DNA of 42,127 nt from Candidatus Curtissbacteria bacterium RIFCSPHIGHO2_01_FULL_41_11 (GCA_001776335.1 MFAZ01000012.1:1-42127), one strand, 5' to 3'; counted from the stretch's first letter, positions 401 to 15,230 are shown. Made by a program: numbers and translations. The notes: generated by a model from the letters alone, not told the origin.

Positions 401-509
401 AATTTTCTCCCCTCTGTATTTAGGATATAAACTCTCACCATGATTAGCAACAATTTGCTCTGCCATATTGCGGCAAATATAATGCAAAAAGTCGAATCTG
501 GCTTGATAT

Positions 510-539
510 TTACCTAACAAGTACCTTACGGGATATAAT
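510..539 (+). promoter_or_regulatory. Candidate sigma70-type promoter for the regulator gene (TTACCT-N18-TATAAT)
   Basis: TATAAT lies at 534-539, 10 nt before the ATG at 550. The best -35 is TTACCT at 510-515 (4/6 match). This implies a very short leader. Confidence 0.3.
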
Positions 540-549
540 TGTTTCCGAA

Positions 550-1917
550 ATGCAAAAGCTAATTCTTCTCGACAACTTCCCTAAAGACTTTCGCGAGAAA
601 GATGTGAAACAAATCTTTGGCTACGTCTTAACCGGCAAATTTTGCCAGCTCATCTCAATTCCCGGTGGAGGTAAAGCAACCCTCCTAAAACTGATGGCAT
701 CAAACGAAAATTTACGCAAGTTTCACCTGGGACCAAGGCTCACTTCAACCAGAATAATATATTTAGATCTTCACGAACTTCCAAACTTTGAAATATCACA
801 AGTTGAGAAATTCCTGCTTCTATCGATAGACCCGAAGGTTAATGCGGAAACTGAGCCTTTGCTGCTTACAAAACAGCTGAATCGCCTATTTAGTAAGCTA
901 ATCGCACAAAATATAAATATTATCTTCTTGCTTGATCATTTTGACGAATTCCAAAACAGCCTGCCGCCTTCCTTCTTCCAAATGTTAAAACGCCTAAGAA
1001 CTCTAAATAAATACAAATTTGGCGTTGTTTTTGGCACAAGACGGGATCTAAAGGAATTAATAGACCGTGAAGTCCTCACAAATTTCTACGATTTTTTCAC
1101 CGACAACACACTTTACCTGAAAATCTACGATGAAAAGGCTATAAATGTTATGTTTTCCCAAATTGAACAGGCTTTTTCCCAAAAACTCTCGACAGAACAA
1201 AAAGAAGCAATCATCAAACTCACGTCCGGCCACGCAAAACTGACTAAAGTGCTAACAGAAATAACCCTCCGGGAGAAGCAAGCTCCGGATCTCGAAACTC
1301 TACCTCAAAAACCACTAATCAAAGAGGCTCTTTTTGAAATCTGGCTTTTTCTAACCGCTAAGGAGCAGAATTTACTGAAATTAATAGCCCAAAAGAAAGC
1401 AGTTGAAAAAGACGAAGCATTGGAAAACCTGATTAAATTCGATCTCGTTCAACAATTCAACCCGCTTCGCCCGCAACTTGCGTCGACGCAGGCGCGAAGC
1501 GAGACGAGCAATTCAACAATTCAACCCGCTTCGCCCGCGAAGCGAGGCGAGCAATATTCTTTCACTATTCCCCTTTTTGAACAATTTGTACTCGACATAG
1601 TACCAAGTATTACCCAAGAGAAAATTTCCTTTAATCAGGAATCTAAGGAAATCCTTAAGGGGACAAGTGTGATATCTGATTTACTTTCCCCTCAGGAATT
1701 TCGCCTTTTGAGATTCTTAATTCAAAACGAAGGAAAAATCATCGGCCGGGATGAAATAATAGAAGCCGTCTGGACAGATGTTAAATCGCAGGAGGGTATT
1801 AGCGATGAGGCCATCGACCAAATGATTTTCAGGCTGCGCAAAAAAATTGAGGACGAGCCACAGGCGCCGAAGCATATTGTAACCGTAAAAGGCCTCGGAG
1901 TGCGCTTCCAACCTTAA
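550..1917 (+). CDS. P-loop NTPase (STAND/AAA-like) fused to a C-terminal OmpR/PhoB-type winged-helix DNA-binding domain; putative transcriptional regulator
   Basis: Walker A-like IPGGGKATLLKLM and Walker B-like IIFLLDHFDEF. The C-terminus (LSPQEFRLLRFLIQNEGKIIGRDEIIEAVW...DQMIFRLRKKIE...IVTVKGLGVRF) fits the Trans_reg_C wHTH pattern. The linker is encoded by a GC-rich repeat block (1450-1552). Confidence 0.7.
   Translation: MQKLILLDNFPKDFREKDVKQIFGYVLTGKFCQLISIPGGGKATLLKLMASNENLRKFHLGPRLTSTRIIYLDLHELPNFEISQVEKFLLLSIDPKVNAETEPLLLTKQLNRLFSKLIAQNINIIFLLDHFDEFQNSLPPSFFQMLKRLRTLNKYKFGVVFGTRRDLKELIDREVLTNFYDFFTDNTLYLKIYDEKAINVMFSQIEQAFSQKLSTEQKEAIIKLTSGHAKLTKVLTEITLREKQAPDLETLPQKPLIKEALFEIWLFLTAKEQNLLKLIAQKKAVEKDEALENLIKFDLVQQFNPLRPQLASTQARSETSNSTIQPASPAKRGEQYSFTIPLFEQFVLDIVPSITQEKISFNQESKEILKGTSVISDLLSPQEFRLLRFLIQNEGKIIGRDEIIEAVWTDVKSQEGISDEAIDQMIFRLRKKIEDEPQAPKHIVTVKGLGVRFQP
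1450..1552. repeat. GC-rich palindromic repeat block inserted in frame in the regulator gene
   Basis: Perfect 25-nt direct repeat CAACAATTCAACCCGCTTCGCCCGC at 1450-1474 and 1514-1538. Inverted partners CGCTTCGC/GCGAAGCG lie at 1463-1470/1494-1501 and 1527-1534/1537-1544. A 12-nt palindrome TGCGTCGACGCA lies at 1479-1490. Confidence 0.8.
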
Positions 1918-3251: not shown

Positions 3252-4862
3252 ATGGAGCAACATCCTGTCCCCCAGCATATAGCTTCTTTTGAATTTAAAC
3301 TCTTCTGGAATCTCACCGTCCGCCAATTTGTAACCTTGGCTATTCCGATGTCCCTGGCAGCTGCTATATTTTTTTCCTCTCTGCCAAGCTTACTCCGCTA
3401 TCCATTTTCGGGTGTTATTGCTCTTTTTGCCTTCTTTGCAGCTCTTGTCCCGATAAATGGCCGCCCGCTTGATAAATGGCTCGTTTCTTTTATAAAAGCC
3501 GTTACTTCTCCAACCCAAAGGCTCTGGGTTAAAGAACCAAAAATTCCTGAATTTTTAAACATTGTAATATCACCTTCTCCGCAAGAAGAAAAAGTTCCGG
3601 AAACTATTACTTCTCAGGGTCGTGAAAGACTTAGAGCCTACCTCAGATCGCTTCCAAAGGGGACTTATACTCCGTTTGACGTTAAGGAACAAATTGCAGT
3701 CGAAAGACTGGGGCTCCAACCTGGTCAATTAGCTCCAGGCGGATTCTCAACACAAGGTACTCTTCCGCCTCCAATTATCTGGCCGACTACAACAGGAGCC
3801 GGCAGATACGTTTACACTGGTCCCTCTGTACCCCAAGTTTCCGCCGCTCCCGGGCTTTCAATGTCTCAAATGCCCGCAGGATCTACCACCCCTAGGCTTC
3901 AATTAGACGAACAGTACGAAGGCTCCATGGAAGAAGCCCTTCCTCCGACTGCACCGACCAGAACTGCAGCTGCTCCAAAAATCACTCTCCATGCCAAACC
4001 ATACGCCTTGCCCGGCCTGGAAAAAAAGCTTCAGAAAAAAACCAAAGCTGAGCATATCGAACTTGCCCCGACTGCACCCCTTGTAAAAGCCCAGATTGCT
4101 TCAGAAACCAATCCGGCAGTAGAAAATGTAATCTCAATAAGAACGCCGGACAGAAAAATTAAGCTAATCCATGGCGTCGGCCAAACCAGAGTAAGAAAGC
4201 TCCATTTTGCACCTCCGGAAGGATTCGATCTTTCAAAGATGCCAATTCGCGGCGAAAAAAGATTCGAGATTTCCCAGGAGCTGAAAAGCCGTTTTACGGT
4301 TGATAATGACTTATTCGAAGAAAAACAGGCTCCTGCTCCACCTGTTGTTCTGCCAACGGCACCCCAGACCGTCTCCTATACCCCGGAAAATCCTGAATTC
4401 AAACAATCTTCACAAGCACCCATGCCAGATAAAATTCACTTCATCCCAAAAAATAAAGTGGTTCAACCTACTACCGGTGTAACCCTTAAAAAAGATGAGG
4501 CTGAGAACCTTGAAGCCAAAATCTCAGTCGGTGGAGAAAAAACACCCCACATCCCCTTATCCGGGACAACCGGCAGAGCCCAAATCGTCCCCCTAACAAA
4601 TACCCCTAACGTTATTTCCGGTATTGTTACCGATCAGGAAGGTAATCCGGTAGAAAGCGCCATTCTTATCATAAAAGATTCCACTGGAATTCCTGTAAGA
4701 GCGCTTAAAACAAACAAGCTGGGACAATTTCTTTCGGCAACGCCCCTAAACGATGGCCCATATTCCATCGAAGTCGAATCTGATGAGAAAAATTTTGATG
4801 CCATGTCTTTAATGCTGGCAGGAAAAATTATTGATCCTTTGCAAATAAAATCAAAAAACTAA
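3252..4862 (+). CDS. PrgI-family (VirB3-like) membrane protein with a long P/T/Q-rich extension and a C-terminal CarboxypepD_reg-like beta-sandwich
   Basis: The N-terminus HPVPQHIASFEFKLFWNLTVRQFVTL plus two hydrophobic helices fits the PrgI signature. The C-terminal ISGIVTDQEGNPVESAILIIKDSTGIPVRALKTNKLGQF...YSIEVES (about 4614-4799) fits the carboxypeptidase-regulatory-like fold. It is the first gene of the T4SS-like operon. Confidence 0.65.
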   Translation: MEQHPVPQHIASFEFKLFWNLTVRQFVTLAIPMSLAAAIFFSSLPSLLRYPFSGVIALFAFFAALVPINGRPLDKWLVSFIKAVTSPTQRLWVKEPKIPEFLNIVISPSPQEEKVPETITSQGRERLRAYLRSLPKGTYTPFDVKEQIAVERLGLQPGQLAPGGFSTQGTLPPPIIWPTTTGAGRYVYTGPSVPQVSAAPGLSMSQMPAGSTTPRLQLDEQYEGSMEEALPPTAPTRTAAAPKITLHAKPYALPGLEKKLQKKTKAEHIELAPTAPLVKAQIASETNPAVENVISIRTPDRKIKLIHGVGQTRVRKLHFAPPEGFDLSKMPIRGEKRFEISQELKSRFTVDNDLFEEKQAPAPPVVLPTAPQTVSYTPENPEFKQSSQAPMPDKIHFIPKNKVVQPTTGVTLKKDEAENLEAKISVGGEKTPHIPLSGTTGRAQIVPLTNTPNVISGIVTDQEGNPVESAILIIKDSTGIPVRALKTNKLGQFLSATPLNDGPYSIEVESDEKNFDAMSLMLAGKIIDPLQIKSKN

Positions 4863-5927
4863 ATGTCAAAAAAACAGGTTAAGGCAAAAGCATCAACTCA
4901 AGAGCATTTGGATATAGACGACATAGTAGACGACCTTGTGCTTCTTAAAACCGGTTGGGTTGCATGTGTTATGTCCACAACCGCAGTTAATTTTGACCTG
5001 CTTTCAGAAGCCGAACAAGATGCCACTATCTACGCTTTCGGTGCTTTCTTGAATTCGCTTTCCTTCCCTTTGGAAATTCTTATCCGCTCTAAGAAGGCAG
5101 ACATAACCTCCTATTTCCAAAGTTTGGAAGAAGCCGAGGTTGCTCAGCCGAATCCGGATATCAAAAGACAAATTCAAAAGTACAAGGACTTTATCCAATC
5201 AACAGTTCAGCAAAAAACAGTTCTTGATAAAAAATTCTATTTTATAATAAATTTCTCTCCTGTTGAGCTTGGTTTAAAAGGCGGGCTTTCTGGTAAAAAG
5301 GCAGGTGCCGGGAGTAAATCTCAATTATTAACGGACGCCAAAACTGCCCTTGCGCCAAAACGAGACCACATCATAAAACAAACCTCAAGACTCGGCTTAA
5401 CTACCAAACAACTTACAACTCAGGAGTTAATCGAGTTGTTTTATGATATCTACAATCCCGCCCCCACCGGAACCCAAAGAGTTCTTTTAGACACTGACGC
5501 CTACACCACGCCCTTGGTCGAGCCAGCAGTCGAGGTCCCAATTCCCGCCCCTGTCCAAATACCTCAACAACCTGCTCCGCCACCTTCACCCCTAATTAAT
5601 CCAGTCCAAGAAGCAACCGCACCCGTCTCAGGGTTAGACCTAAGACAAAAAATTTCCCCTATACAAGAACCTTCGGCACCGGAACTTCGTCCTGTAGACC
5701 CGAGGCCTCAAGTTGCACCCCCGCCTAACCTTGCACCCCATCAGGCCCGCCCGCCAACGACTGCAGCCGTAGGCTCTGTCGGGCAGGCAGAAGCATTAAA
5801 AAATTTACAAGCGGCAACTTCTCAAGCTGCCCAGTTTACCCAGCCTGCAGGCGGGCAGGCCAACAGACCAACACCAAACCCAACAATAAATCAAAACCCA
5901 AATGTCAAAACTGAAAACTATAACTAA
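4863..5927 (+). CDS. VirB4 N-terminal-domain-like protein without ATPase motifs, with a Pro-rich C-terminal tail
   Basis: Its ATG abuts the upstream TAA (4860-4865). HLDIDDIVDDLVLLKTGWVACVMSTTAVNFDLLSEAEQDATIYAFGAFLNSLSFPLEILIRSKKAD resembles, from memory, the N-terminal domain of Gram-positive VirB4 ATPases (Tn916 Orf16/ConE type). No Walker A or B motif is present. The last ~130 aa are Pro-rich low complexity. Confidence 0.55.
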   Translation: MSKKQVKAKASTQEHLDIDDIVDDLVLLKTGWVACVMSTTAVNFDLLSEAEQDATIYAFGAFLNSLSFPLEILIRSKKADITSYFQSLEEAEVAQPNPDIKRQIQKYKDFIQSTVQQKTVLDKKFYFIINFSPVELGLKGGLSGKKAGAGSKSQLLTDAKTALAPKRDHIIKQTSRLGLTTKQLTTQELIELFYDIYNPAPTGTQRVLLDTDAYTTPLVEPAVEVPIPAPVQIPQQPAPPPSPLINPVQEATAPVSGLDLRQKISPIQEPSAPELRPVDPRPQVAPPPNLAPHQARPPTTAAVGSVGQAEALKNLQAATSQAAQFTQPAGGQANRPTPNPTINQNPNVKTENYN

Positions 5928-5950
5928 AAAATTAATAATAATTAAAATAA

Positions 5951-5969
5951 AAGCTAACAAAGTTAGCTT
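5951..5969 (+). other. Perfect 8-bp stem / 3-nt loop hairpin between the VirB4-N-like gene and virB4
   Basis: AAGCTAAC (5951-5958) aaa GTTAGCTT (5962-5969). No U-tract follows, so it is not a canonical terminator. Confidence 0.4.
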
Positions 5970-5973
5970 CCAT

Positions 5974-6008
5974 AACTTTGAACTTTTAACTTTGAACTTT
6001 TAACTTTT
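5974..6008 (+). repeat. Heptamer tract AACTTTG/AACTTTT x5 immediately upstream of the virB4 start
   Basis: Units at 5974, 5981, 5988, 5995 and 6002. TGA/TAA at 5979, 5987, 5993 and 6001 cover all three frames. The tract ends 3 nt before the ATG at 6012. Confidence 0.85.
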
Positions 6009-6011
6009 TGT

Positions 6012-7907
6012 ATGAGTATCTTTAACCCTTTTTCCAAACCACAGCCGAAACAAACCCCATTAACTGCCAAAGAACAGCAATGGGCACAGACGCTGTCTGC
6101 TGGCACGGTTTCCGTCAAAGACATAATCGCCCCGCCGGCAATTGAAGTCGACTTTGATTTTCTCAAGGTAGGATCCACCTATTACCGCACATTGTTTGTT
6201 GTAGGTTATCCAAGATATGTTCAGGCAAATTGGCTTGCACCTTTAATTAACTTTGAACACACTCTGGAAATATCCATGTACACCTATCCTGTCGAGGCAA
6301 AAGGCGTTTTAGATGATCTCAGAAGAAAAATCACCGAAATGGAAGCAACCATCGCCACAGATATTCAACATGGTCGTCTCATCGACCCTGCGGTCCAAGC
6401 AGCTCTCGAGGATGCCCATATGCTTCAGGAAGAACTCGTCAAAGGTGCAGAACGATTCTTCCAGTTTGCCCTTTATGTCACAATCCCTGCAGATTCCATT
6501 GAAGAGTTGAATACAATCACCAAACAAGTTGAGTCTACGCTTGGCTCACTTCTGCTGGTCCCTAAACACGCCACACTTCAACAGGAAGACGCTTTCAAAA
6601 CCACCTTGCCTCAAGGCACAGACCATATTTATATCACCCGCAACATGGACACAACATCTCTGGCTACCACTTTCCCATTCATCTCCTCGTCTCTAACCTC
6701 AAACACAGGCGTTATGTACGGCATAAACGAACACAACGGTTCATTGGTTATTTTCGATAGGTTTAGCCAGGAAAATGCCAATTCCGTGATTTTTGCCAAA
6801 TCCGGAGCCGGAAAATCCTATCTGGTAAAACTCGAAGCCCTTAGGTCTCTCATGTTTGGAACAGAAGTAATTGTTATCGACCCCGAAGAAGAATACAAAA
6901 ATCTTTGCGAAGCAATTGGCGGGGAGTATATTTCCTTTAGCTTCAGTTCTCCGGCCAAAATCAACCCGTTTGATCTTTCTGGAATCTACGAAGAAGGTGA
7001 AAATGAACTCGGTCTTAAAATTCTTTCTCTCCATGGCCTGTTGAAAGTCATTATGGGAGAACTCACTCCCGCAGAAGATGCCATTTTAGACAGAGCCCTT
7101 GTTGCAACTTACAAAGCAAAGGGTATAACACCCGATCCGGCAACTCAACAGAATGAACCGCCTCTTATGGAAGACCTGTACAAGGCTCTTCTGGGAATGG
7201 AAGACCCCGGCGCCAAAGGCCTTGCCGACAGGCTTGAACGCTTCGTCAAAGGTTCACTTTTGGGAATTTTTAATCAGCAAAGCAATATCGATATCAAAAA
7301 CACTTTTACTGTTTTTTCAATTAAAGATCTTGAAGACGAACTTCGACCAATCGCCATGTTTCTGATTCTCGACTTTATTTGGACCAGAGTTAAAAACGAC
7401 ATCAGAAAACGTTTGCTCGTGGTGGACGAGGCTTGGTACATGCTTCAGTATCCTGACAGCGCAACGTTCATGTACAGTATCGCCAAACGCGCCAGAAAAT
7501 ATTATCTGGGACTAACTACAATTACCCAAGACGTCGAAGACTTTTTAAATACGGATTACGGCAAAGCAATTGTTACCAACTCCTCCATCCAGATTCTTTT
7601 AAAACAATCTCCGGCAGCCATCGATCAAGTAGCCGATGTCTTCTATCTCTCCGAAGGAGAAAAACACTTGCTTTTGGCAGCAGACATAGGAGAAGGCATA
7701 TTTTTTGCTGGCCCCAATCATGTTGCAATTCGTGTAATAGCTTCACAGGACGAACACTATTTGGTTACCACAAATCCTGAAGAAGTTATGGAAATGCAGA
7801 AAAAAGCCGAAGAAACCGAACAGCAGTTCCAACAGCAGCCTGCCTCGCCGACTGGCGGGCCTGCCTCGCCGACTGGCGGGCCTCCCCAAAATCCGCAAAC
7901 TCAATAG
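6012..7907 (+). CDS. virB4: VirB4/PrgJ-family type IV secretion ATPase
   Basis: Walker A FAKSGAGKSYLVK and Walker B RLLVVDEAWYML. N-terminal VirB4-type block YYRTLFVVGYPRYV. The C-terminal tail PASPTGGPASPTGGP is encoded by GC-rich 21-nt repeats. Confidence 0.85.
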   Translation: MSIFNPFSKPQPKQTPLTAKEQQWAQTLSAGTVSVKDIIAPPAIEVDFDFLKVGSTYYRTLFVVGYPRYVQANWLAPLINFEHTLEISMYTYPVEAKGVLDDLRRKITEMEATIATDIQHGRLIDPAVQAALEDAHMLQEELVKGAERFFQFALYVTIPADSIEELNTITKQVESTLGSLLLVPKHATLQQEDAFKTTLPQGTDHIYITRNMDTTSLATTFPFISSSLTSNTGVMYGINEHNGSLVIFDRFSQENANSVIFAKSGAGKSYLVKLEALRSLMFGTEVIVIDPEEEYKNLCEAIGGEYISFSFSSPAKINPFDLSGIYEEGENELGLKILSLHGLLKVIMGELTPAEDAILDRALVATYKAKGITPDPATQQNEPPLMEDLYKALLGMEDPGAKGLADRLERFVKGSLLGIFNQQSNIDIKNTFTVFSIKDLEDELRPIAMFLILDFIWTRVKNDIRKRLLVVDEAWYMLQYPDSATFMYSIAKRARKYYLGLTTITQDVEDFLNTDYGKAIVTNSSIQILLKQSPAAIDQVADVFYLSEGEKHLLLAADIGEGIFFAGPNHVAIRVIASQDEHYLVTTNPEEVMEMQKKAEETEQQFQQQPASPTGGPASPTGGPPQNPQTQ

Positions 7908-7937
7908 CCTGCCTCGCCGACTGGCGGGCCTGCCTCG
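7839..7937. repeat. GC-rich 21-nt hairpin unit CCTGCCTCGCCGACTGGCGGG: 2 copies, a 27-nt spacer, then 1.4 copies, straddling the virB4 stop
   Basis: Copies at 7839-7859, 7860-7880 and 7908-7928, with a partial copy at 7929-7937. The TAG stop (7905-7907) lies in the spacer. Each unit has an internal stem CTCGCC/GGCGGG with loop GACT. Confidence 0.85.
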
Positions 7938-7980
7938 TGCTAATATGGAAGTAAGCCTGTAAATTCTGGCCAATTGGGTC

Positions 7981-10900
7981 ATGCCTGCTGCCACTGCCGA
8001 AAATTTAGAACCCATAAATCCAACAAAACTCGCAGACGCCATTCGCTGGTCGATAGAATATTTGCTTGACCCAAAGCGTGGAGGCGGTAAATCGCTGCCT
8101 TCAGATAAAGAACTCAAACTCCGCTACCAAAATCCTCAGATAACCCAAAAGCTTATTAATTTCGAGGTGCTGAACCGCTTCTCTGTAAATTCGATAGAAA
8201 AAATTCAGGATCTTGAACAACAAAAGATACAAGAAGTGTTGGGGAAAACTGGGCAAGAGCAAGAGCAAAATCAGTCAACTATAAATCAAGCCGCAGTTCC
8301 CAAAACCCAGGCAAAAATAATTCAGTTCCCCTCATCAAAAAGAGTATCAGCGCTTGGTGTTTTGGCTGAAATCGATACTGTTTTGGAAAATCACAAAAAT
8401 TCCATAAGCCCCAAACTTACCGCCGATTTATCACCAAAGATCAAGGAACTCCTGCCAAAGTTAGGCATCAAAAACTTAAGCGAAGAACAACTTAATAAAA
8501 TAGCTCAGGAAGTCGCTGTTGAAACATCGCGTCAAACATTAGAAGACGCCCATAAAATTCAAAACGTATCGCAAATAAATGACCTGGTCGCAGACAGTCT
8601 AACCCAGACACTTATCACCCATCCGGAAATCGCGGGGAAAATCAAAGACGAGCCTACAAAAGTTTTCCAAAAAATTTGGGGTCAAACCAAGGAAATCTCA
8701 ACAAGCAACCAAAATGACCTGGAAAAAGCGGCAGCCCTTGCAAATCTAGACGAAATTGCCGAACTTCAAAAACCCGATCAAGCAGTCGAGGAAGCACTTA
8801 CAACAAGTGCCAGAGACACAGTAGAATCGCAAGAACCCTTGGGTGGATCACAACTTCAGGAAAATATAAAAGGCAACTTTAAAAGCTATTTATCAGATTA
8901 CGTAAAAGAAGTGGATACTCAACTATCAAAATTACCAAAAGGCGAAGTCCCAAGTCTTGAAGAGCTTCAAAAATTAAAAGATGCAGCGCATACCAACGCG
9001 CAAGAAACACAAGGCGGCAAACAAAGTGGCACCAAGATAGACTACAAAAATGCTGCGGATACTCTGGCAAACTCACTAAACCTGGCACAAATTCAACCAA
9101 AAAGTGCGCCAAACCTACCAGTAGTTATAGAAACAATTGTCAATAATCCCACATACGGCAAAAAGCTGTACCTCGCCGCCCTTGGCCACGACGAACAAAC
9201 TCTTGCCAAAAGCCTGAAGGAAAAATCCGAAATAATCGAAAGGCTTAAAAGCAAAAAGTCGCTGACTTTAAAAGAGGCCAAACAACTGTCCGAAGCGAAG
9301 CTTTACTGGGCAAAATACGCTCAAGCCCAAGCATTAAAAGTAAAAAATCCCAAACAATACCAGGCGCTTCTTAGTATTCTCTCCAAAATGGGTGATGGAC
9401 GAGCTGAACTTGTCTCCCAATCAGTCTGGCAATCGGAGCGTTTCCTCCAGGCGAAAATGCCCAAAATTTTTGCCTACAACGAACGACTCACCGCTGGAGC
9501 TGCCTTTGGGAAACTCGGTTTCAATATCGGTGGCATGGGCATCGGATCTATATTCTCAAATATCAAAGGCCAGATAAGCGCTGCCTCAATGCTCGGCATG
9601 GGCATGGCTTCGACCAAATCAATAAATAAGATCCGGAATCAAATCACTGCAGCAATCGGTGCGCCAATCGCAGGTCTTATGCTCTATCTTATGAGTCTTG
9701 GCCAAGCTGCAGTCACCGGCGCCATTATCGGCATGGGCACAGGTGCTTTAGCAGGGGCCGTCATCCCTGTCGCCTTTTTAGGTCCTGCCGGCGTCCTTCT
9801 TTGGCCGGTCACAGTTCCTCTTGGCATTGTTATGGGTGGCGCAGCCGGCGCACTAATCGGACTGGGTATAGCATCCGGCAGTGCCACTATGATTTCGATG
9901 GGCGCAGCCGGCGCAACCGGCGCTTTAATAGGCGGCTACATTGGATTTGGGGTTGGAGCAGGAATTGGAACATTTTTGGCCGGCGTATGTATTACATTTA
10001 CCGCAGGACTATGTGCACCATTCGCACCATTTATTGTCATCGGATCAACAGCAATAGGCACTGCAATTGGCGCTGCCATCGGGTTTGTCGTTGGCCTTGC
10101 AACCGGCTATTTGATCGGCAAATTCTTGATAACTCCATTAATGTCCGGCGTCAAAAGCGCTCTTGGCGGAATCGGTGCCGGGGCCGGGGCAGGGTTAGGC
10201 CTTCTCAACTCCCTCTATGGGCTGGCGACTGGCCTTCTCCATACCGGTATAGGCGCTATAAGTTCAATAGGAGGTGGTCTGCTTAGCGGACTGTCCGGTG
10301 GTCTAAGCATGATTGTTAATGGTCTTGGTTTTGGTGGTGCTGCAACAGCAAGCGCTGCCGCAATACCCGTCCTTTCCACATTTGGCGTTGTTGGAGTAAC
10401 GGGAGCTATGACCGCAGTCATCGTCCCCGCAGCCATCTTCGCCACAATTGCCGGCGATGAAATCACCCCTATTATTACACCTGGCCAAAATCAATATTTT
10501 TCCCTCACCAAATCCGCTGTCCCGGACAAAATTCCAAACTCAGCGCTTCCCTCACAGATAGATTACACGATAACACTAGAAGCCAAAGTCAATCTGGAAA
10601 ATATTCAAATCACAGACGTGCTCAAGGTTCAAAAGCAAAGCACTAGTTTTGAGCTGTCACCCGACCCGTGCACCGGCACCTTACCGCAAACCCTGCAAGC
10701 CGGAGACCCGCCGTGGACCTGCAATTTCTCAGTTACAGTAGACATAAATTTCGAAGACTCTTTGGTGGCCAATACTGTAACTGTAAAAGCAACACCTGAA
10801 GGCCAGGCGGAATTCACGGACCACTCAACCGCGACAACGATTATAGGAAATCCCCCCACAATCTGCGCGATATTAAATATTGAAGGTCCATGGTCACAGG

Positions 10901-11415
10901 AAGAAAAAGACAACATAAACTCCATTTGCCAAGTCCTCGATCAGTCTCCTCAATATGTTTCTCTGTTGCAAAGAGCTGGCACAATTACACTCCAACGTGT
11001 TCCAGGTGGAACCTTGGGAGAAGGGGTCTGTGGCACAGTCAATGGAGGCAACATCGTAAGAATTTCATGTTCCATGACACCCATAAGCTTCGCAAAATAC
11101 GTAATTATCCATGAATTAGGGCACGTCTTGGGGAATTACAATGGCGCGCTTTTTAATGATTTTATATCGACCTATAACCAAGAAGGCCTTGTGCCAACCT
11201 ATCCTTTTGATGTAGAGAGTGCCGATGAATCTTTCGCGGAAATGACAACAGAATATGTAGTCTCTAAAGAATACAATCACCCTCCAAGATCATGGTCGGG
11301 ATACCCGGGAGGCCCATGGATCAACCCCGGGCCAGGGTGGACAACATTCCAACAAGATAGACCTGCTCACTATGATTTTGCTAAATCCAAAGTATTTGGC
11401 GGCAAGGAATACTGA
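7981..11415 (+). CDS. Giant polytopic membrane protein in the VirB6/PrgH position: soluble N-terminal region, Gly/Ala-rich multi-TM core, C-terminal zincin (HExxH) domain
   Basis: The first ~480 aa are K/E/Q-rich and soluble. Residues ~500-830 (about nt 9480-10470) are extremely G/A-rich, with many GxxxG-type hydrophobic helices. The C-terminus carries HELGH (11110-11124) and a downstream DESFAEM (11224-11244). Confidence 0.7.
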   Translation: MPAATAENLEPINPTKLADAIRWSIEYLLDPKRGGGKSLPSDKELKLRYQNPQITQKLINFEVLNRFSVNSIEKIQDLEQQKIQEVLGKTGQEQEQNQSTINQAAVPKTQAKIIQFPSSKRVSALGVLAEIDTVLENHKNSISPKLTADLSPKIKELLPKLGIKNLSEEQLNKIAQEVAVETSRQTLEDAHKIQNVSQINDLVADSLTQTLITHPEIAGKIKDEPTKVFQKIWGQTKEISTSNQNDLEKAAALANLDEIAELQKPDQAVEEALTTSARDTVESQEPLGGSQLQENIKGNFKSYLSDYVKEVDTQLSKLPKGEVPSLEELQKLKDAAHTNAQETQGGKQSGTKIDYKNAADTLANSLNLAQIQPKSAPNLPVVIETIVNNPTYGKKLYLAALGHDEQTLAKSLKEKSEIIERLKSKKSLTLKEAKQLSEAKLYWAKYAQAQALKVKNPKQYQALLSILSKMGDGRAELVSQSVWQSERFLQAKMPKIFAYNERLTAGAAFGKLGFNIGGMGIGSIFSNIKGQISAASMLGMGMASTKSINKIRNQITAAIGAPIAGLMLYLMSLGQAAVTGAIIGMGTGALAGAVIPVAFLGPAGVLLWPVTVPLGIVMGGAAGALIGLGIASGSATMISMGAAGATGALIGGYIGFGVGAGIGTFLAGVCITFTAGLCAPFAPFIVIGSTAIGTAIGAAIGFVVGLATGYLIGKFLITPLMSGVKSALGGIGAGAGAGLGLLNSLYGLATGLLHTGIGAISSIGGGLLSGLSGGLSMIVNGLGFGGAATASAAAIPVLSTFGVVGVTGAMTAVIVPAAIFATIAGDEITPIITPGQNQYFSLTKSAVPDKIPNSALPSQIDYTITLEAKVNLENIQITDVLKVQKQSTSFELSPDPCTGTLPQTLQAGDPPWTCNFSVTVDINFEDSLVANTVTVKATPEGQAEFTDHSTATTIIGNPPTICAILNIEGPWSQEEKDNINSICQVLDQSPQYVSLLQRAGTITLQRVPGGTLGEGVCGTVNGGNIVRISCSMTPISFAKYVIIHELGHVLGNYNGALFNDFISTYNQEGLVPTYPFDVESADESFAEMTTEYVVSKEYNHPPRSWSGYPGGPWINPGPGWTTFQQDRPAHYDFAKSKVFGGKEY

Positions 11416-11990
11416 TGGCAGAATTCAATCTCATCCGGATTTCAAAACTTATTAAATCAGAACTGCTTCTAATAATTTTAGGAGTTCTCTCAATTACAAT
11501 TTTTTCTATAGCTGTCATAAGCTTCACAAAAAGAGGAAAGGCACCGCCACCCGCACAAACACCTTGGAACGAAAATATTTATGCAGGCCAAACAACTAAG
11601 CAGGAACTTGAAACGAAGCTGGGTACCCCCGAAAAGATTGAAGCAATTGATGAAGGGGTCGCTTATTTTTACCCCACGGAAGACAGGTACAGACCGGACA
11701 AAATAGAAATCAGTGGGGATACTGTTTCTATAATCAAAGAACAGGTTCTCGAGTCAGAAAAAGGGGGCTTGAATAATTATTTACAAAAATATGGTACACC
11801 ACAGGCAAAGTTATATGGCCCATTCGGAACAATTGCGCCTGGGCATTTCTGGGGGAATAACGGAATTATTGTATTTGGGAATGAACATGACGGTACTATA
11901 GTAGAAATTTGGTATTTTGCACCGACCAATTTAGAAAATTTTCTTGCGCAAAACACCAAACTGAAGACGGAAGAACCTCGAGGTTTTTAA
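11415..11990 (+). CDS. Small N-terminally membrane-anchored protein; last gene of the T4SS-like operon
   Basis: TGATG start/stop overlap with the upstream gene (11413-11417). One N-terminal TM helix (LLLIILGVLSITIFSIAVISF), then a ~150-aa soluble domain. I recognised no family. Confidence 0.6.
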   Translation: MAEFNLIRISKLIKSELLLIILGVLSITIFSIAVISFTKRGKAPPPAQTPWNENIYAGQTTKQELETKLGTPEKIEAIDEGVAYFYPTEDRYRPDKIEISGDTVSIIKEQVLESEKGGLNNYLQKYGTPQAKLYGPFGTIAPGHFWGNNGIIVFGNEHDGTIVEIWYFAPTNLENFLAQNTKLKTEEPRGF

Positions 11991-12289
11991 AAACTCCTAA
12001 ACCTCAAACTTCTCACAATCTTCTTCCCCAACGTCTCATTAATGTCTCGCATCAGCCCACCAGCGCGCATCTGAAGTTCGCTTGACATCAAACCGGGAGA
12101 CTTAACCGTCAACACCCCTTTTTTAAAAGACGTAGGTCTTGCCGTTTTTAAAACACTCTCCGGTAAATCACCGCAAACTTTTTTTAGCGAATCAAAAAAA
12201 GCGCGTCGTACATGAAGAGCGACAATTGCATCTGGGGTCTTGGATCGTTTTGGTAGTGTCTTGATAAGATCACCGACTTGGGTAAACAC
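11987..12289 (-). CDS. dciA: DUF721/DciA-like protein (putative replicative-helicase operator)
   Basis: 100 aa with a GTG start. SFKKGVLTVKSPGLMSSELQMRAGGLMRDINETLGKKIVRSLRF fits the DUF721 pattern. It sits in the classic position directly downstream of dnaN. Confidence 0.6.
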   Translation of the reverse strand: MFTQVGDLIKTLPKRSKTPDAIVALHVRRAFFDSLKKVCGDLPESVLKTARPTSFKKGVLTVKSPGLMSSELQMRAGGLMRDINETLGKKIVRSLRFRSF

Positions 12290-12301
12290 AGCATTAGTTT
12301 A

Positions 12302-12343
12302 CTAGTTGCTAGTGGCTAGTTGCTAGTGGCTAGTGGCTAACTT
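12302..12343. repeat. Heptamer tract CTAGTTG/CTAGTGG x5 plus CTAACTT, filling the dnaN-dciA spacer
   Basis: Units at 12302, 12309, 12316, 12323, 12330 and 12337. The palindromic CTAG gives TAG in all six frames. The dnaN TAG stop (complement of 12337-12339) lies in the last unit. Confidence 0.9.
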
Positions 12344-13464
12344 TGCAGTCGGACCGGCATGACAATATGAAAGTAATCTCCTTCGTCAGGAATTGTAATT
12401 CGCCCGGGGTTCAAGCTTTCAATCATTTCGAAAAAAATATCATCGCTTTCGATAGATGATAAAACCTCGAGAAGATAACGAAAGTTGAAGGCAATTTCTC
12501 CTCCATTCCCGGTAAGTTCGATTTCCGAAGAGGCTTCATCCGACCCCACCTGATTGTTATTTGCAGAAACTGTCAAAATCCCTTTCGCCCCACCTTCAAG
12601 TTTTAGCTTAATAATGTTCCCTGAATCGCGGGCAAAAATAGACGCTACTCTTACCAGCCTTATCAGTTCTTCTCTAGAAATTTTGGCTTTTGAAGAAAAG
12701 CTCGTAGGGATAATTTTCTGCCAAGGGGGGAATTCACCCTCAATAAGTCTCGAGGTAAACTCCACATTGCCTATCCCAAAATTTACCTGATTCAAAGCAT
12801 CCGCCACAGTAACCAGGACAGGCTTGCCGCTTGCTTCTTCCCCAGCTTCACTGATTATTTTGAAAACCTCAAACAACGTTCTGGCGGGTGTTATTATCTT
12901 ACCCACAAAATCACCCTCTGCCGAAAACTGCTGGAAGCTTAACCTGTAACCATCGGTCGCTACCATTGAAAAGCTCTTTTTGGAAAACTCACACAGAACG
13001 CCCACAAGAGCCGGCCTCCCCTCGTCTTGTGAAGCCGAAAATGCCACCCTTAATATTGCTTTTGAAAACTCAAGTGCATCCAAAACCAGAGTTTTCCCTT
13101 TGTCTATTTTTGGTATCGCTGGGAAATCTTCAATAGGCATTGTCGCAAATCTCGCGCTAAATCTTTTGGAAGAAACCTTGACCTCCTCACCCAGTTTTTC
13201 AACAATCATCTCCCCTGGGGGTACCTGAGCGACAAATTCGGAAATTGGCCTCCCAGGGACCGTTGTTTTGCCTTCAACTTCAACATTGCATTCGGTATTT
13301 ACCCGCGTAGCAGTTTCCAAATCCGTCGAAAGAACCTCTATTTTCCCCTTGGAGGCAGAAATTAAAATGTTTGTGAGGATGGGCAGGTTTGCTTTTGTTT
13401 GAAGTGATTTATTTACGGAAACAAGCAGTTTGGAAAATTCTTCCTGGGAAATTTTAAATTTCAT
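12337..13464 (-). CDS. dnaN: DNA polymerase III beta sliding clamp
   Basis: MKFKISQEEFSKLLVSVNKSLQTKANLPILTNILISA..., with three-domain clamp length and a position downstream of dnaA. I prefer the ATG at 13464. The ORF-track start at 13521 is a GTG that would add 19 aa. Confidence 0.9.
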   Translation of the reverse strand: MKFKISQEEFSKLLVSVNKSLQTKANLPILTNILISASKGKIEVLSTDLETATRVNTECNVEVEGKTTVPGRPISEFVAQVPPGEMIVEKLGEEVKVSSKRFSARFATMPIEDFPAIPKIDKGKTLVLDALEFSKAILRVAFSASQDEGRPALVGVLCEFSKKSFSMVATDGYRLSFQQFSAEGDFVGKIITPARTLFEVFKIISEAGEEASGKPVLVTVADALNQVNFGIGNVEFTSRLIEGEFPPWQKIIPTSFSSKAKISREELIRLVRVASIFARDSGNIIKLKLEGGAKGILTVSANNNQVGSDEASSEIELTGNGGEIAFNFRYLLEVLSSIESDDIFFEMIESLNPGRITIPDEGDYFHIVMPVRLQS

Positions 13465-13521
13465 TTTTTCTTTGAGGATTCTTGTTGGGGCAGAAACATC
13501 GCCATTATATAGATTTTCCAC

Positions 13522-13727
13522 AAATTTTTAAACACCCAATCTCAAACTAAAGTTATATCAAAAATAGTAATATTCTTAGTATTCTTGTTTATATCTTAAA
13601 AACCAAGAGCCGCACCTGCCTGGAATTATGTCGAAAAAATTGTGGAAAACCTTCCACTTGTTGTTGATAAGTATGAAATTTTTGTGGGGGAACACAATGT
13701 TTTTGTAGAAAAGCTTTATGAGAAATA
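13522..13727. promoter_or_regulatory. Candidate oriC: AT-rich stretch plus a same-orientation cluster of DnaA-box-like 9-mers in the dnaA-dnaN spacer
   Basis: TGTGGAAAA at 13641-13649. TGTTGATAA at 13662-13670 (1 mismatch to TGTGGATAA). TGTGGGGGA at 13683-13691 (weak). TGTAGAAAA at 13704-13712. An AT-rich segment spans about 13522-13610. Confidence 0.5.
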
Positions 13728-15080: not shown

Positions 15081-15103
15081 GTTATTCAAATAGTTTTTGA
15101 AAT

Positions 15104-15230
15104 AGTGCTCTATGCAGGCTTATCGGTGTTTGTAGATCTGGGCTGAAGAAGATCTAAATTTTTTTAGAGCACTAATTATAATTGCAAAACTTTTCCACAG
15201 ATGTCAACACCCAAAATTTTTTGTGGAAAA
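15104..15230. promoter_or_regulatory. dnaA/rpmH divergent control region: a nested palindrome plus two facing DnaA boxes
   Basis: AGTGCTCTA (15104-15112) pairs with TAGAGCACT (15165-15173). This encloses TAGATCT (15133-15139) paired with AGATCTA (15150-15156). TTTTCCACA lies at 15191-15199 and TGTGGAAAA at 15222-15230. Confidence 0.45.

What the first reader, a model, noticed from the sequence alone, without database searches (positions are those of the whole stretch)
3252..11990. Origin-adjacent minimal T4SS-like operon with no relaxase, coupling protein or VirB11
Five co-directional genes are packed with gaps of 0-84 nt and with start/stop abutments (TAA|ATG at 4860-4865, TGATG at 11413-11417). 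They look like one operon.

The five products are:
- a PrgI/VirB3-like membrane protein
- a VirB4-N-domain-like protein
- a VirB4-family ATPase (GAGKS, LLVVDEAW)
- a 1144-aa polytopic protein in the VirB6/PrgH position
- a small anchored protein

Nothing in the window resembles a relaxase, a VirD4-type coupling ATPase, VirB11, a pilin or an integrase. The block also abuts dciA-dnaN-dnaA, so it sits in the core chromosome rather than on an obvious ICE.

To my knowledge VirB4/VirB6-like genes have been noted in Saccharibacteria/CPR genomes. The composition, substrate and role of such a reduced apparatus are not established. Candidate roles are DNA uptake or delivery of effectors to a host cell.
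Basis: partly seen in the sequence, partly recalled or inferred. Interest (0 to 1): 0.75.

Follow-up and report, generated by a model that had tools for sequence, protein, structure and literature searches.

The report
Known CPR secretion machine, swappable peptidase
The five genes are the relaxase-free type IV secretion core already described for ultra-small Patescibacteria, here in a Curtissbacteria genome next to dnaA; the one fresh detail is that its large membrane protein carries an exchangeable zinc-peptidase head that always travels with a small inhibitor-fold partner gene.

Summary
Five co-directional ORFs (3252-11990) have gaps of 0, 84, 73 and -1 nt and end against dciA-dnaN-dnaA.

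ORF1 has a PrgI/VirB3 domain. ORF2 is a TrsD-like VirB4 N-domain protein. ORF3 is a VirB4 ATPase of the CD1110 family.

The organism is Candidatus Curtissbacteria (Microgenomatia), not Saccharibacteria.

Two corrections:
- ORF4 shows no VirB6/TrbL homology. By pCF10 gene order it sits in the PrgK (wall hydrolase) slot, not the PrgH slot.
- ORF5 is not VirB8-like. It has a DUF4309/BLIP-like fold from the PepSY clan, which includes enzyme inhibitors.

New here:
- ORF4 ends in an uncatalogued HExxH...E zincin domain whose nearest fold match is PPEP-1.
- In close relatives the ORF4 head region plus ORF5 is replaced, as one cassette, by a Peptidase_M23 head plus an unrelated 330-360 aa protein.
- The HExxH gene was followed by an ORF5-family gene in 10 of 10 loci, one of them outside any T4SS.

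Verdict: a new member of a known kind, with a modest new sub-feature.

The parts
3252..4862 (+). ORF1, 536 aa. It has a PrgI/VirB3-like two-TM N-terminus (aa 5-91, nt 3264-3524), a long Pro-rich linker and a conserved C-terminal CarboxypepD_reg-like beta-sandwich (aa 455-511, nt 4614-4784). The tail is probably cytoplasmic.
   Evidence: Pfam PrgI scores 36.2 bits against a cut-off of 27. CarboxypepD_reg scores 27.2 bits, below its cut-off of 32.3. Two hydrophobic segments were found. Both the N-terminal and the C-terminal pieces are conserved upstream of TrsD across the loci. The topology is inferred from the charge distribution around the TM segments.
4863..5927 (+). ORF2, 354 aa. It is a TrsD-like protein homologous to the N-terminal domain of VirB4 (aa 4-130), with a low-complexity Pro-rich tail.
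   Evidence: NCBIfam VirB4_plasma profile positions 96-234 match at E 1.1e-8, and TrsD at E 6.2e-8. Of 24 orthologues, 24 hit the VirB4_plasma N-region and 22 hit TrsD. The precomputed Pfam annotation is 'TraC-like (weak)'.
6012..7907 (+). ORF3, 631 aa. It is a VirB4-family ATPase lacking the usual N-terminal ~180 aa. Walker A is at nt 6804-6818 and Walker B at nt 7413-7436.
   Evidence: NCBIfam conju_CD1110 scores 395.9 bits against a cut-off of 325, over profile positions 178-734 of 752. Pfam P-loop_TraG scores 107 bits. The PDB 4ag5 VirB4 C-domain matches at E 8e-51.
7981..11415 (+). ORF4, 1144 aa. Its parts are: a soluble helical N-region (aa 1-~540), a glycine-zipper polytopic region (aa ~541-830), an Ig-like module (aa ~831-962, ending in the conserved GNPPTIC motif at nt 10846-10866), and a C-terminal HExxH...E zincin head (aa ~963-1144). 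HELGH is at nt 11110-11124 and ESFAE at nt 11227-11241.
   Evidence: TM scan. The alignment of six homologues shows the head swap. Only Gly-zipper, M23 and DUF7507 hits, and no TrbL hit, were found among 48 relatives. The head model has pLDDT 93.8. Foldseek places it nearest PPEP-1/Zmp1. H1044, E1045, H1048 and E1083 are invariant.
11415..11990 (+). ORF5, 191 aa. It has an N-terminal membrane anchor and an extracytoplasmic DUF4309/BLIP-like (PepSY-clan) domain. It is the obligate partner of the HExxH head.
   Evidence: The AlphaFold model has pLDDT 84. Foldseek matches YjgB/DUF4309 (4ygt) and the CAP-associated domains of 4h0a and 4ifa at E ~2e-4, and returns no VirB8/NTF2 hit. The gene lies directly downstream of an HExxH gene in 10 of 10 loci.
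10512..11986 (+). Replaceable cassette, comprising the Ig-like module and HExxH head of ORF4 plus all of ORF5. In the closest M23-type relative it is exchanged for an M23 head plus a 332-aa 'p350' gene.
   Evidence: blastn of the window against L086 is colinear at 67-82% identity on both sides. Homology is lost at 10511 and resumes exactly at 11987, the dciA 3' end.
11987..15089 (-). dciA (11987-12289), dnaN (12337-13521) and dnaA (13728-15089), the replication genes that flank the block.
   Evidence: Pfam hits. The same arrangement recurs in related loci.
13514..15230 (.). Two candidate oriC box clusters. TTTTCCACA occurs at 13514 and 13641 (with TTATCAACA at 13662) in the dnaN-dnaA spacer, and at 15191 and 15222 upstream of dnaA.
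   Evidence: Motif search and local AT-richness, with GC of 0.32-0.36.
550..1917 (+). Candidate regulator. It has a P-loop/STAND-like N-region and an OmpR-type winged-helix C-terminus. It is co-directional with the block and syntenic with it in Curtissbacteria.
   Evidence: Pfam Trans_reg_C at E 1e-20. A weak NACHT hit is recorded for the L086 orthologue. The gene is adjacent to the block in L001, L002, L004, L005, L008, L009 and L010.

Best explanation
This is the chromosomal, vertically inherited type IV secretion core of the 'Patescibacteria clade', which derives from monoderm MPF-FATA conjugation systems. Here it sits in a Candidatus Curtissbacteria genome.

Shown:
- ORF1 is a PrgI/VirB3-type membrane protein.
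- ORF2 plus ORF3 together make a split VirB4: a TrsD-like N-domain followed by the ATPase.
- The block lies 1.5-3 kb from DnaA-box clusters and is conserved there across Microgenomatia.
- ORF4 is a large polytopic glycine-zipper protein. Its extracytoplasmic end is an Ig-like module plus a zincin (HExxH...E) peptidase head.
- ORF5 is a membrane-anchored protein with a PepSY-clan (BLIP/DUF4309) fold that always accompanies that head.

Inferred:
- PrgI anchors the VirB4 hexamer at the membrane.
- ORF4 supplies the membrane channel or scaffold (a VirB6-like role). Like PrgK in pCF10, it also supplies the enzyme that cuts a path through a cell wall or surface-protein layer, either the cell's own or that of the host it sits on.
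- ORF5 restrains or guards against that peptidase on the producer's surface.
- With no relaxase or coupling ATPase nearby, the machine does not conjugate. It moves proteins or host-derived macromolecules at the epibiont-host contact, as proposed for Saccharibacteria, where the homologous genes are essential.
For: Family assignments:
- PrgI is above Pfam's cut-off.
- conju_CD1110 is above NCBIfam's cut-off, and the profile coordinates are complementary: ORF2 matches VirB4 positions 96-234 and ORF3 matches 275-879.
- Of 24 ORF2 orthologues, 24 hit the VirB4 N-region and 22 hit TrsD.
- ORF3 matches PDB 4ag5 at E 8e-51.

Lineage and synteny:
- The best virB4 loci (83-95% identity) are mostly Curtissbacteria MAGs.
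- PrgI-TrsD-VirB4 order is conserved in the loci with enough upstream sequence. dnaA or dnaN lies within 5.7 kb of virB4 in 35 of 36 loci with at least 8 kb on both flanks.
- Housekeeping genes fill the rest of the window. GC content is 0.453 in the block against 0.421 elsewhere.

ORF4 and ORF5:
- The head model has pLDDT 93.8, and its best structural neighbours are PPEP-1/Zmp1 and other zincins. H-E-x-x-H and a downstream E are invariant in 33 sequences.
- Relatives carry Peptidase_M23, with or without YkuD, at the same place.
- pCF10 gene order is prgI-prgJ(virB4)-prgK(hydrolase)-prgL.
- ORF5 has a DUF4309/BLIP-like fold. That clan contains enzyme inhibitors (PMC11836899).
- HExxH and ORF5 are paired in 10 of 10 loci, and M23 and p350 in about 23 of 25.
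- The cassette boundaries were mapped.

Literature:
- The Southlakia T4SS genes are essential and lack a relaxase and T4CP (PMC10633639).
- The phylum-wide survey covers TrsD, PrgI, dnaA proximity and the scarcity of relaxases (PMC12102498).
Against: - No experiment exists for any Microgenomatia T4SS.
- ORF4 shows no sequence similarity to VirB6/PrgH or to PrgK, so its channel and wall-cutting roles rest on architecture and gene position.
- The head's similarity to PPEP-1 is moderate (TM ~0.5, E ~4e-3), so the substrate is unknown and need not be peptidoglycan.
- ORF5's inhibitor role is inferred only from its fold clan and its co-occurrence with the head.
- A T4CP, VirB2 pilin array, VirB8-like protein or relaxase could lie elsewhere in the genome. 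The contig ends about 750 bp left of the window.
- There is no GC-skew inversion at dnaA within the window.
Confidence: 0.75

Rival explanations
1. The block is a decayed or cryptic conjugative element (ICE remnant) that inserted next to the origin. Its relaxase, coupling protein and integrase were lost or lie just off the contig.
For: The VirB4 belongs to a family typical of Firmicutes ICEs and plasmids, CD1110. The contig ends about 750 bp left of the window, so the left side is only partly visible. GC content is slightly higher in the block, 0.453 against 0.421.
Against: The same gene order next to dnaN/dnaA/yidC recurs in about 80 species-level Microgenomatia loci whose VirB4 identity falls as low as 61%. 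That pattern fits vertical inheritance, not recent insertion. In L051, L059 and L063 the dnaN-dnaA-yidC-jag group lies immediately upstream of virB4. In L051 and L063 it separates virB4 from PrgI-TrsD. No integrase, tRNA or flanking direct repeats were found. Relatives with 10 kb of left flank show no relaxase or T4CP Pfam hits there.
Confidence: 0.04
2. The block is a DNA-import machine. It would be a T4SS-derived uptake system analogous to archaeal Ced or Helicobacter ComB, bringing host DNA or nucleotides into a cell that cannot make them.
For: ORF3 has weak similarity to CedB and CedD, at E 9e-11 and 1e-6. The organism's lineage lacks nucleotide synthesis, and the import idea is favoured in PMC12102498. 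No relaxase or T4CP is needed for import.
Against: No DNA-binding or nuclease component is present in the block. In Southlakia, comEC-dependent DNA uptake is dispensable while the T4SS is essential, so the substrate remains open (PMC12857230). The CedB similarity is far weaker than the similarity to conjugative VirB4. This rival concerns the substrate and is compatible with the anatomy given in the best explanation.
Confidence: 0.2
3. ORF4 and ORF5 form a polymorphic-toxin-like effector/immunity pair that uses the T4SS membrane complex as its platform. The variable peptidase head attacks the host bacterium's envelope, and ORF5 protects the producer.
For: The organisation has a conserved body, a conserved junction motif (G956...C962) and a variable C-terminal enzyme domain, with a co-varying downstream gene. 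The pair also exists as a stand-alone two-gene unit outside any T4SS, in L092. The partner has an inhibitor-clan fold. Peptidase heads swapped on one membrane anchor have been described in another patescibacterial operon (PMC12419801).
Against: The head is part of a polytopic membrane protein with no evident release site. M23 and zincin domains are also ordinary housekeeping wall enzymes. Gram-positive T4SSs need a cis-acting hydrolase such as PrgK, which explains the position without invoking toxicity. No toxicity or immunity data exist.
Confidence: 0.3

Closest known systems
Patescibacteria-clade T4SS (Quinonero-Coronel et al. 2025, PMC12102498; Southlakia epibionticum SEML1_0006-0019, Wang et al. 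2023, PMC10633639)
   Same: It shares PrgI/VirB3, TrsD and VirB4 in one cluster. It is chromosomal and close to dnaA/dnaN. No relaxase or T4CP lies nearby. The VirB4 is related to monoderm MPF-FATA systems.
   Different: No VirB2-like pilin array and no recognisable VirB6 were found in this window. The published survey itself reports VirB6 as scarce in Microgenomatia. The gene after virB4 is a very large polytopic protein with an exchangeable peptidase head plus a PepSY-clan partner, which those papers do not describe.
pCF10 Prg/Pcf conjugation system of Enterococcus faecalis (prgH-prgI-prgJ-prgK-prgL)
   Same: The order is the same: PrgI, then VirB4, then a large membrane-anchored envelope-cutting enzyme, then a ~200-aa N-terminally anchored protein. 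ORF1 and PrgI hit the same Pfam family, with similar scores.
   Different: VirB4 is split into TrsD plus the ATPase. There is no PrgH/TrbL homologue. ORF4 has a zincin head in place of lysozyme plus CHAP, and shows no sequence similarity to PrgK. ORF5 has a BLIP/DUF4309 fold rather than the VirB8/NTF2 fold of PrgL, and shows no similarity to PrgL. There is no T4CP (PcfC), relaxase, or adhesin.
pGO1/pSK41 Trs system (source of the TrsD family)
   Same: It has a separate small protein homologous to the N-terminal part of VirB4, encoded next to the ATPase (PMC12102498).
   Different: ORF2 scores far below the TrsD family cut-off (32.7 bits against 200). It also carries a 130-aa Pro-rich tail. The rest of the Trs gene set is absent.
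PPEP-1/Zmp1 Pro-Pro endopeptidase of Clostridioides difficile (PDB 5a0p, 6r56)
   Same: It is the best structural neighbour of the ORF4 head (TM ~0.5, probability ~1.0). Both have an HExxH motif plus a downstream glutamate ligand, and both are extracytoplasmic.
   Different: Sequence identity is 12-15% and there is no Pfam or NCBIfam family hit. The ORF4 head is fused to a 960-aa membrane protein and is always paired with a DUF4309-fold gene. Its substrate specificity is unknown.
Polymorphic toxin / immunity cassettes (CdiA-CT/CdiI, Rhs, LXG)
   Same: Both have a conserved body, a conserved junction, a variable C-terminal enzymatic domain, and a co-varying gene immediately downstream. Both are exchanged as one DNA segment.
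   Different: No known toxin-delivery domain or release site is present. The body is a polytopic T4SS-associated membrane protein. Immunity function is untested.

Membership tests
Patescibacteria-clade T4SS (PMC12102498) | VirB4 ATPase with Walker A and B motifs | tested here: met
   conju_CD1110 scores 395.9 bits against a cut-off of 325. P-loop_TraG scores 107 bits. PDB 4ag5 matches at E 8e-51. The GAGKS and LLVVDEAW motifs are present.
Patescibacteria-clade T4SS (PMC12102498) | TrsD-like protein (VirB4 N-domain homologue) encoded next to virB4 | tested here: met
   ORF2 matches the VirB4_plasma N-region at E 1e-8 and TrsD at E 6e-8. Of 24 orthologues, 24 and 22 hit these respectively. All scores are below the full-length family cut-offs.
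Patescibacteria-clade T4SS (PMC12102498) | PrgI/VirB3 homologue near virB4 | tested here: met
   Pfam PrgI scores 36.2 bits against a cut-off of 27.
Patescibacteria-clade T4SS (PMC12102498) | VirB4 falls inside the monophyletic Patescibacteria clade | tested here: inconclusive
   No tree was built. Many of the 80 closest genomic loci carry Patescibacteria or Microgenomates names, and many others carry names that look like mislabels, such as Gammaproteobacteria and Pseudomonadales.
Patescibacteria-clade T4SS (PMC12102498) | No relaxase or T4CP near virB4, and a chromosomal location near dnaA/dnaN | tested here: met
   No such families were found in 42 kb, or in 2.5 kb further left on L081. dnaN lies 347 nt from the end of ORF5. 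The whole genome is not available.
Patescibacteria-clade T4SS (PMC12102498) | VirB2-like pilin array (frequent, not universal) | tested here: inconclusive
   No array of small two-TM ORFs was seen in the window. No pilin HMMs were available, and such an array may lie elsewhere in the genome.
VirB6 / TrbL / PrgH | Sequence homology to the TrbL/VirB6 polytopic domain | tested here: not met
   ORF4, 37 relatives and 10 locus proteins gave no PF04610 hit. hhalign against PrgH gave probability 0.1. As a positive control, pCF10 PrgH hits TrbL at 29.2 bits. Only the polytopic architecture resembles 'extended VirB6'.
VirB8 / PrgL (NTF2-like) | N-terminal TM segment plus an NTF2-like periplasmic fold | tested here: not met
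   The ORF5 model (pLDDT 84) matches DUF4309/BLIP-like structures. No VirB8 entry appears among the hits. hhalign against PrgL gave probability 0.7.
Conjugative T4SS (MPF-FATA, e.g. pCF10) | Relaxase and VirD4-type coupling protein functionally linked to the channel genes | tested here: not met
   Both are absent from the window and the visible flanks. The rest of the genome cannot be tested.
Zincin / gluzincin metallopeptidases (PPEP-1/M34-like) | HExxH motif with a downstream Glu ligand, on a zincin fold | tested here: met
   H1044, E1045, H1048 and E1083 are invariant in 33 sequences. Foldseek matches PPEP-1, 4l7a and Wss1 with TM 0.47-0.53. Membership of a named MEROPS or Pfam family is not met, since there were no Pfam hits.
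DUF4309 / PepSY clan (BLIP-like) | Tandem alpha+beta4 BLIP-like fold, with a Pfam PF14172 match | tested here: inconclusive
   The fold matches YjgB (4ygt) at E 1.9e-4 with TMt 0.55. Pfam DUF4309 scores 16.9 bits against a cut-off of 25.
Polymorphic toxin-immunity systems | A variable C-terminal domain after a conserved junction, with a co-varying downstream gene | tested here: met
   
Polymorphic toxin-immunity systems | Toxicity of the C-terminal domain and neutralisation by the downstream protein | not testable with these tools
   This needs expression, binding and inhibition assays.

The most novel reading that the evidence does not exclude
In Microgenomatia the 'missing' VirB6 may be replaced by a fast-evolving polytopic glycine-zipper protein. 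Its outer end would be a plug-in enzymatic head (M23, YkuD or a previously uncatalogued HExxH zincin). The head is exchanged by recombination together with a cognate inhibitor or immunity gene. On this reading the T4SS is a contact weapon or feeding port whose envelope-cutting specificity, and hence host range, is set by a polymorphic cassette.
Probability: 0.25. Interest if true: 0.65.

Novelty: new member of a known kind. Interest (0 to 1): 0.38.

Why it matters
The T4SS itself adds nothing new beyond another Microgenomatia example of a published system.

The ORF4/ORF5 result is more useful. It gives a concrete candidate for the membrane and envelope-breaching component that homology surveys could not find in Microgenomatia. 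It also defines an undescribed zincin domain family (about 107 cluster representatives among 1.84 billion proteins). And it shows that this head always travels with a PepSY-clan partner and is swapped as a cassette against M23 heads.

If the head acts on the host envelope, this would be a testable determinant of epibiont-host specificity in a phylum where almost nothing is known mechanistically.

Tried and rejected
- **ORF5 as VirB8/PrgL analogue:** rejected by the predicted fold and by hhalign.
- **ORF4 as VirB6 or PrgK homologue:** no support from Pfam scans of 48 relatives, from hhalign against PrgH and PrgK or from a profile search of PDB sequences. That search found only M23 hits, which come from the M23-type members of the alignment.
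- **ORF2 against solved structures:** nothing by single sequence or by profile. hhalign against the single PrgJ sequence was only suggestive (E 0.058), though in the right region.
- **Promoter and terminator scans:** counts were no different from shuffled sequence.
- **Direct repeats, tRNA and att-like features around the block:** none relevant.
- **GC skew as an origin marker:** no inversion anywhere in the window.
- **The p350 partner of M23-type heads:** no Pfam or PDB match. It shows no domain homology to ORF5 beyond the membrane anchor.
- **Large conserved proteins upstream of the block in relatives:** no Pfam hits, apart from an unrelated ClpB in L054.
- **Hidden T4CP among unannotated ORFs:** no Walker A motifs found.

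Full report
**1. Observation**

- 3252-4862 (536 aa)
- 4863-5927 (354 aa)
- 6012-7907 (631 aa)
- 7981-11415 (1144 aa)
- 11415-11990 (191 aa)

The gaps between them are 0, 84, 73 and -1 nt. The abutting TAA|ATG and the overlapping TGATG were read in the sequence. The Walker A (GAGKS) and Walker B (LLVVDEAW) motifs are in ORF3.

ORF5 converges on dciA with a 4-nt overlap. dnaN and dnaA follow on the minus strand, then yidD, yidC and jag.

The rest of the window is housekeeping: LeuRS, TsaD, CTP synthase, GroES/EL, ribosomal protein L25 and polysaccharide genes. No ORF hits a relaxase, VirD4-type ATPase, VirB11 or integrase family. The ORFs without Pfam hits have no Walker A motif. There is no tRNA gene.

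Operon status is an inference from spacing and conserved order, because the consensus promoter and terminator scans were no better than shuffles.

**2. Origin adjacency**

Four exact copies of the DnaA-box variant TTTTCCACA occur in the 42 kb. All four lie in the two AT-rich intergenic regions flanking dnaA, at 13514, 13641, 15191 and 15222. This supports an oriC within 1.5-3.2 kb of the end of the block. GC skew, however, does not change sign anywhere in the window. The origin call therefore rests on dnaA/dnaN and the boxes only.

**3. What the first three genes are**

- **ORF1.** Residues 5-91 match Pfam PrgI above the gathering score (36.2 against 27 bits). This is about the same score that authentic pCF10 PrgI gets (32.6 bits). 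Two hydrophobic helices are present. The remaining ~440 residues are a Pro-rich linker and a C-terminal CarboxypepD_reg-like beta-sandwich. That domain is below Pfam's threshold but conserved in relatives. From the charge distribution, the tail is probably cytoplasmic (inference).
- **ORF2.** It has no Pfam hit in my scan. It matches the N-terminal part of a full-length VirB4 model (VirB4_plasma positions 96-234, E 1.1e-8) and the TrsD model (E 6.2e-8). Of 24 orthologues taken from related loci, 24 hit the VirB4 N-region and 22 hit TrsD.
- **ORF3.** It passes NCBIfam's cut-off for the CD1110 family of VirB4 ATPases (395.9 against 325 bits), but aligns only from profile position 178 onward. It covers VirB4_plasma positions 275-879. 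It matches the solved VirB4 C-domain 4ag5 at E 8e-51.

ORF2 and ORF3 therefore behave as a VirB4 split into its N-domain and its ATPase. This is what the literature calls TrsD plus VirB4.

**4. Lineage and conservation**

A genome-collection scan with ORF3 returned 80 loci. Most of the closest ones (83-95% identity) are Candidatus Curtissbacteria MAGs. The others carry Microgenomates-group or Patescibacteria names, and many carry names that look like mislabels. The organism is therefore Microgenomatia, not Saccharibacteria.

tblastn and ORF mapping of these loci show three things:
- PrgI-TrsD-VirB4 is kept in order in nearly all loci with enough upstream sequence.
- dnaA or dnaN lies within 5.7 kb of virB4 in 35 of 36 loci with at least 8 kb on both flanks.
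- In L051, L059 and L063 the dnaN-dnaA-yidC-jag group lies immediately upstream of virB4. In L051 and L063 it separates virB4 from PrgI-TrsD.

This is vertical, core-chromosome behaviour, not that of a recently inserted element. The contig that holds the window ends about 750 bp to the left. A second contig shows only a large protein of unknown function, transcribed divergently, in that position.

**5. It is already published**

- Wang et al. 2023 (PMC10633639) described the Southlakia epibionticum T4SS (SEML1_0006-0019). It is essential for epibiotic growth, resembles Gram-positive conjugative systems, and lacks recognisable coupling and relaxase proteins.
- Quinonero-Coronel et al. 2025 (PMC12102498) surveyed 3,035 Patescibacteria genomes. 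They found a monophyletic VirB4 clade nested in MPF-FATA. They also found TrsD as the commonest companion, PrgI/VirB3, few relaxases, and T4CP genes rarely near virB4. dnaA and dnaN were abundant near virB4 'including ... Microgenomatia'. They proposed a gene-dosage rationale and import of DNA or other macromolecules.
- The 2025 FEMS review repeats this (PMC12857230).

**6. Corrections: ORF4 and ORF5**

The survey notes that VirB6 homologues are scarce in Microgenomatia. I found none either:
- ORF4, 37 relatives and 10 locus proteins give no TrbL/VirB6 hit. They give only Gly-zipper, DUF7507 and Peptidase_M23 hits.
- The same Pfam model does detect pCF10 PrgH.
- hhalign of the ORF4 family against PrgH or PrgK finds nothing.

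The pCF10 gene order is prgH, prgI, prgJ (virB4), prgK (hydrolase), prgL. ORF4 therefore sits in the PrgK slot and ORF5 in the PrgL slot, not the 'VirB6/PrgH position'.

ORF5 was modelled with 14 homologues (pLDDT 84). Its ectodomain matches B. subtilis YjgB (DUF4309, 4ygt), the CAP-associated domains of 4h0a and 4ifa, and more weakly a BLIP-like protein. No VirB8/NTF2 structure is among the hits. According to PMC11836899, DUF4309 lies in Pfam's PepSY clan with BLIP and PepSY-like families that act as enzyme inhibitors.

**7. Anatomy of ORF4**

ORF4 has four parts:
- a ~540-aa soluble helical N-region
- about 7-9 hydrophobic, glycine-zipper helices
- an Ig-like module (aa ~831-962)
- a ~180-aa C-terminal domain containing HELGH

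Only six full-length homologues were found by the word-indexed search. Their alignment shows a shared body up to a conserved G-x-P-P-x-x-C junction (G956...C962). After the junction, two of them (including the window protein) carry the HExxH domain and four carry Peptidase_M23.

An exhaustive HMMER search with the HExxH domain found 107 cluster representatives among 1.84 billion proteins. The domain is almost always at the C-terminus of TM-containing proteins of about 600-1,500 aa. A few are short stand-alone proteins or fragments.

In 33 aligned sequences, H1044, E1045, H1048 and E1083 are invariant. This is a gluzincin-type signature. The AlphaFold model is confident (pLDDT 93.8). Its best structural neighbours are the C. 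difficile Pro-Pro endopeptidase PPEP-1/Zmp1, PPEP-2, a Bacteroides putative zinc peptidase (4l7a) and Wss1, at TM ~0.5. Profile-sequence matches to PDB are weak and go only to other zinc hydrolases. No Pfam or NCBIfam family covers the domain.

**8. The cassette**

HMMs for the two head types and the two downstream proteins were run over all ORFs of the loci. Five further HExxH genes were then looked up in public contigs.
- Every HExxH-type gene is followed immediately by an ORF5-family gene, in 10 of 10 loci at E from 3e-22 to 4e-95. One of these is L092, where a 275-aa stand-alone HExxH protein lies among glycoside hydrolase genes with no T4SS nearby.
- M23-type genes are followed by an unrelated 330-360 aa single-TM protein ('p350') in about 23 of 25 loci, and never by ORF5.
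- p350 has no Pfam or PDB match. It shares only the membrane anchor with ORF5.

In the closest M23-type relative (L086), the whole neighbourhood is the same as in the window. Its DNA is colinear with the window at 67-82% identity. The exception is window 10512-11986, which is replaced. Homology resumes exactly at the dciA stop.

The Ig-like module is the only part of ORF4 recognisable across 27 loci. The N-region and TM region are conserved only within Curtissbacteria. In some lineages the big gene and its partner lie upstream of PrgI rather than downstream of VirB4, but they stay in the cluster.

**9. Mechanism**

Shown:
- a PrgI-type anchor, a split VirB4 motor and a large polytopic protein ending in an Ig-like module and a zincin fold
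- a PepSY-clan partner genetically locked to that head
- no conjugation-specific genes in view

Inferred:
- The motor assembles on PrgI at the membrane.
- ORF4 provides the membrane conduit or scaffold (an 'extended VirB6'-like architecture). Like PrgK, it also provides the enzyme that opens a wall or surface layer.
- ORF5 restrains or neutralises the peptidase on the producer's surface.
- The substrate and direction of transport are unknown. Protein export and import of host macromolecules both remain open, as in the literature.

A polymorphic-toxin-like reading of ORF4/ORF5 fits the cassette behaviour but is untested. I give it about 0.25-0.3. A similar swap of papain-like and Gly-Gly peptidase heads on one membrane anchor has been noted in a different patescibacterial operon (PMC12419801).

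**10. Verdict**

The locus is a new member of a known kind. The peptidase-head and partner cassette is a modest, apparently undescribed sub-feature that deserves a phylum-wide survey and a binding test.

Noticed in passing
window 550-1917 (+): A 455-aa protein with a P-loop/STAND-like N-region (GGGKAT; its L086 orthologue has a weak NACHT hit) and an OmpR-type winged-helix C-terminus. It has no receiver domain. In Curtissbacteria it lies directly next to the T4SS block: upstream in L001, L004, L005, L009, L010 and L086, and inverted downstream of virB4 in L002 and L008. It is a candidate regulator of the block.
   Followed up: partly
window 1-520 (-); L081 2-2419 (-): A large (more than 806 aa), highly charged protein with no TM segment and no Pfam hit. 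It is divergently transcribed from the reg-coaBC-T4SS string. Homologues of 24-39% identity lie close to the T4SS block in other Curtissbacteria loci (L002-L005, L009-L011). In L003-L005 and L009-L011 they lie upstream on the opposite strand. Its function is unknown.
   Followed up: partly
L003 691-2211, L007 1140-2636, L009 14-2221, L043 981-2711 and other loci (not in the window): A polytopic protein of about 460-735 aa with 6-10 TM segments recurs a few kb upstream of PrgI in many Microgenomatia loci. The L003 and L009 examples had no Pfam hit. It is an alternative candidate for the missing VirB6. It would lie beyond the left end of this window's contig.
   Followed up: no
window 7839-7937: The 21-nt unit CCTGCCTCGCCGACTGGCGGG occurs twice in tandem at the 3' end of ORF3, where it encodes PASPTGG twice. 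A further 1.5 copies lie just after the stop codon, in the ORF3-ORF4 spacer. The repeat tract therefore extends past the present stop.
   Followed up: partly
window 1448-1538: A perfect 27-nt direct repeat (TTCAACAATTCAACCCGCTTCGCCCGC) spaced 64 nt apart lies inside the 'reg' ORF. A GC-rich palindromic stretch sits between the copies. This region (1177-1646) does not align with the L086 orthologue, which is 31 aa shorter.
   Followed up: no
window 18637-19097 (+): Two small overlapping ORFs of 78 and 74 aa. By eye they look like a HicB-like antitoxin followed by a HicA-like toxin. They sit between the O-antigen-ligase-like gene and the polysaccharide genes. They were not scanned against any library.
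   Followed up: no
window 24916-26730 (-): A 604-aa charged, probably coiled-coil protein with no Pfam hit. It ends in a single Gly/Ala-rich (glycine-zipper-like) hydrophobic tail, reminiscent of the Gly-zipper helices in ORF4.
   Followed up: no
window 28850-30934 (-): The leucyl-tRNA synthetase is only 694 aa, and the editing-domain match covers only about 55 residues. This suggests a truncated CP1 editing domain.
   Followed up: no
L092 2311-3698: The HExxH zincin and its ORF5-family partner also occur as a stand-alone two-gene unit (275 aa and 185 aa, each with a hydrophobic N-terminal segment). Here they lie among GH130 glycoside hydrolase genes, with no T4SS genes within 7 kb.
   Followed up: partly
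L007 11909-14905: One Curtissbacteria ORF4 homologue carries both a Peptidase_M23 domain and a YkuD (L,D-transpeptidase) domain after the membrane region. This indicates that the heads are aimed at peptidoglycan peptide stems.
   Followed up: no
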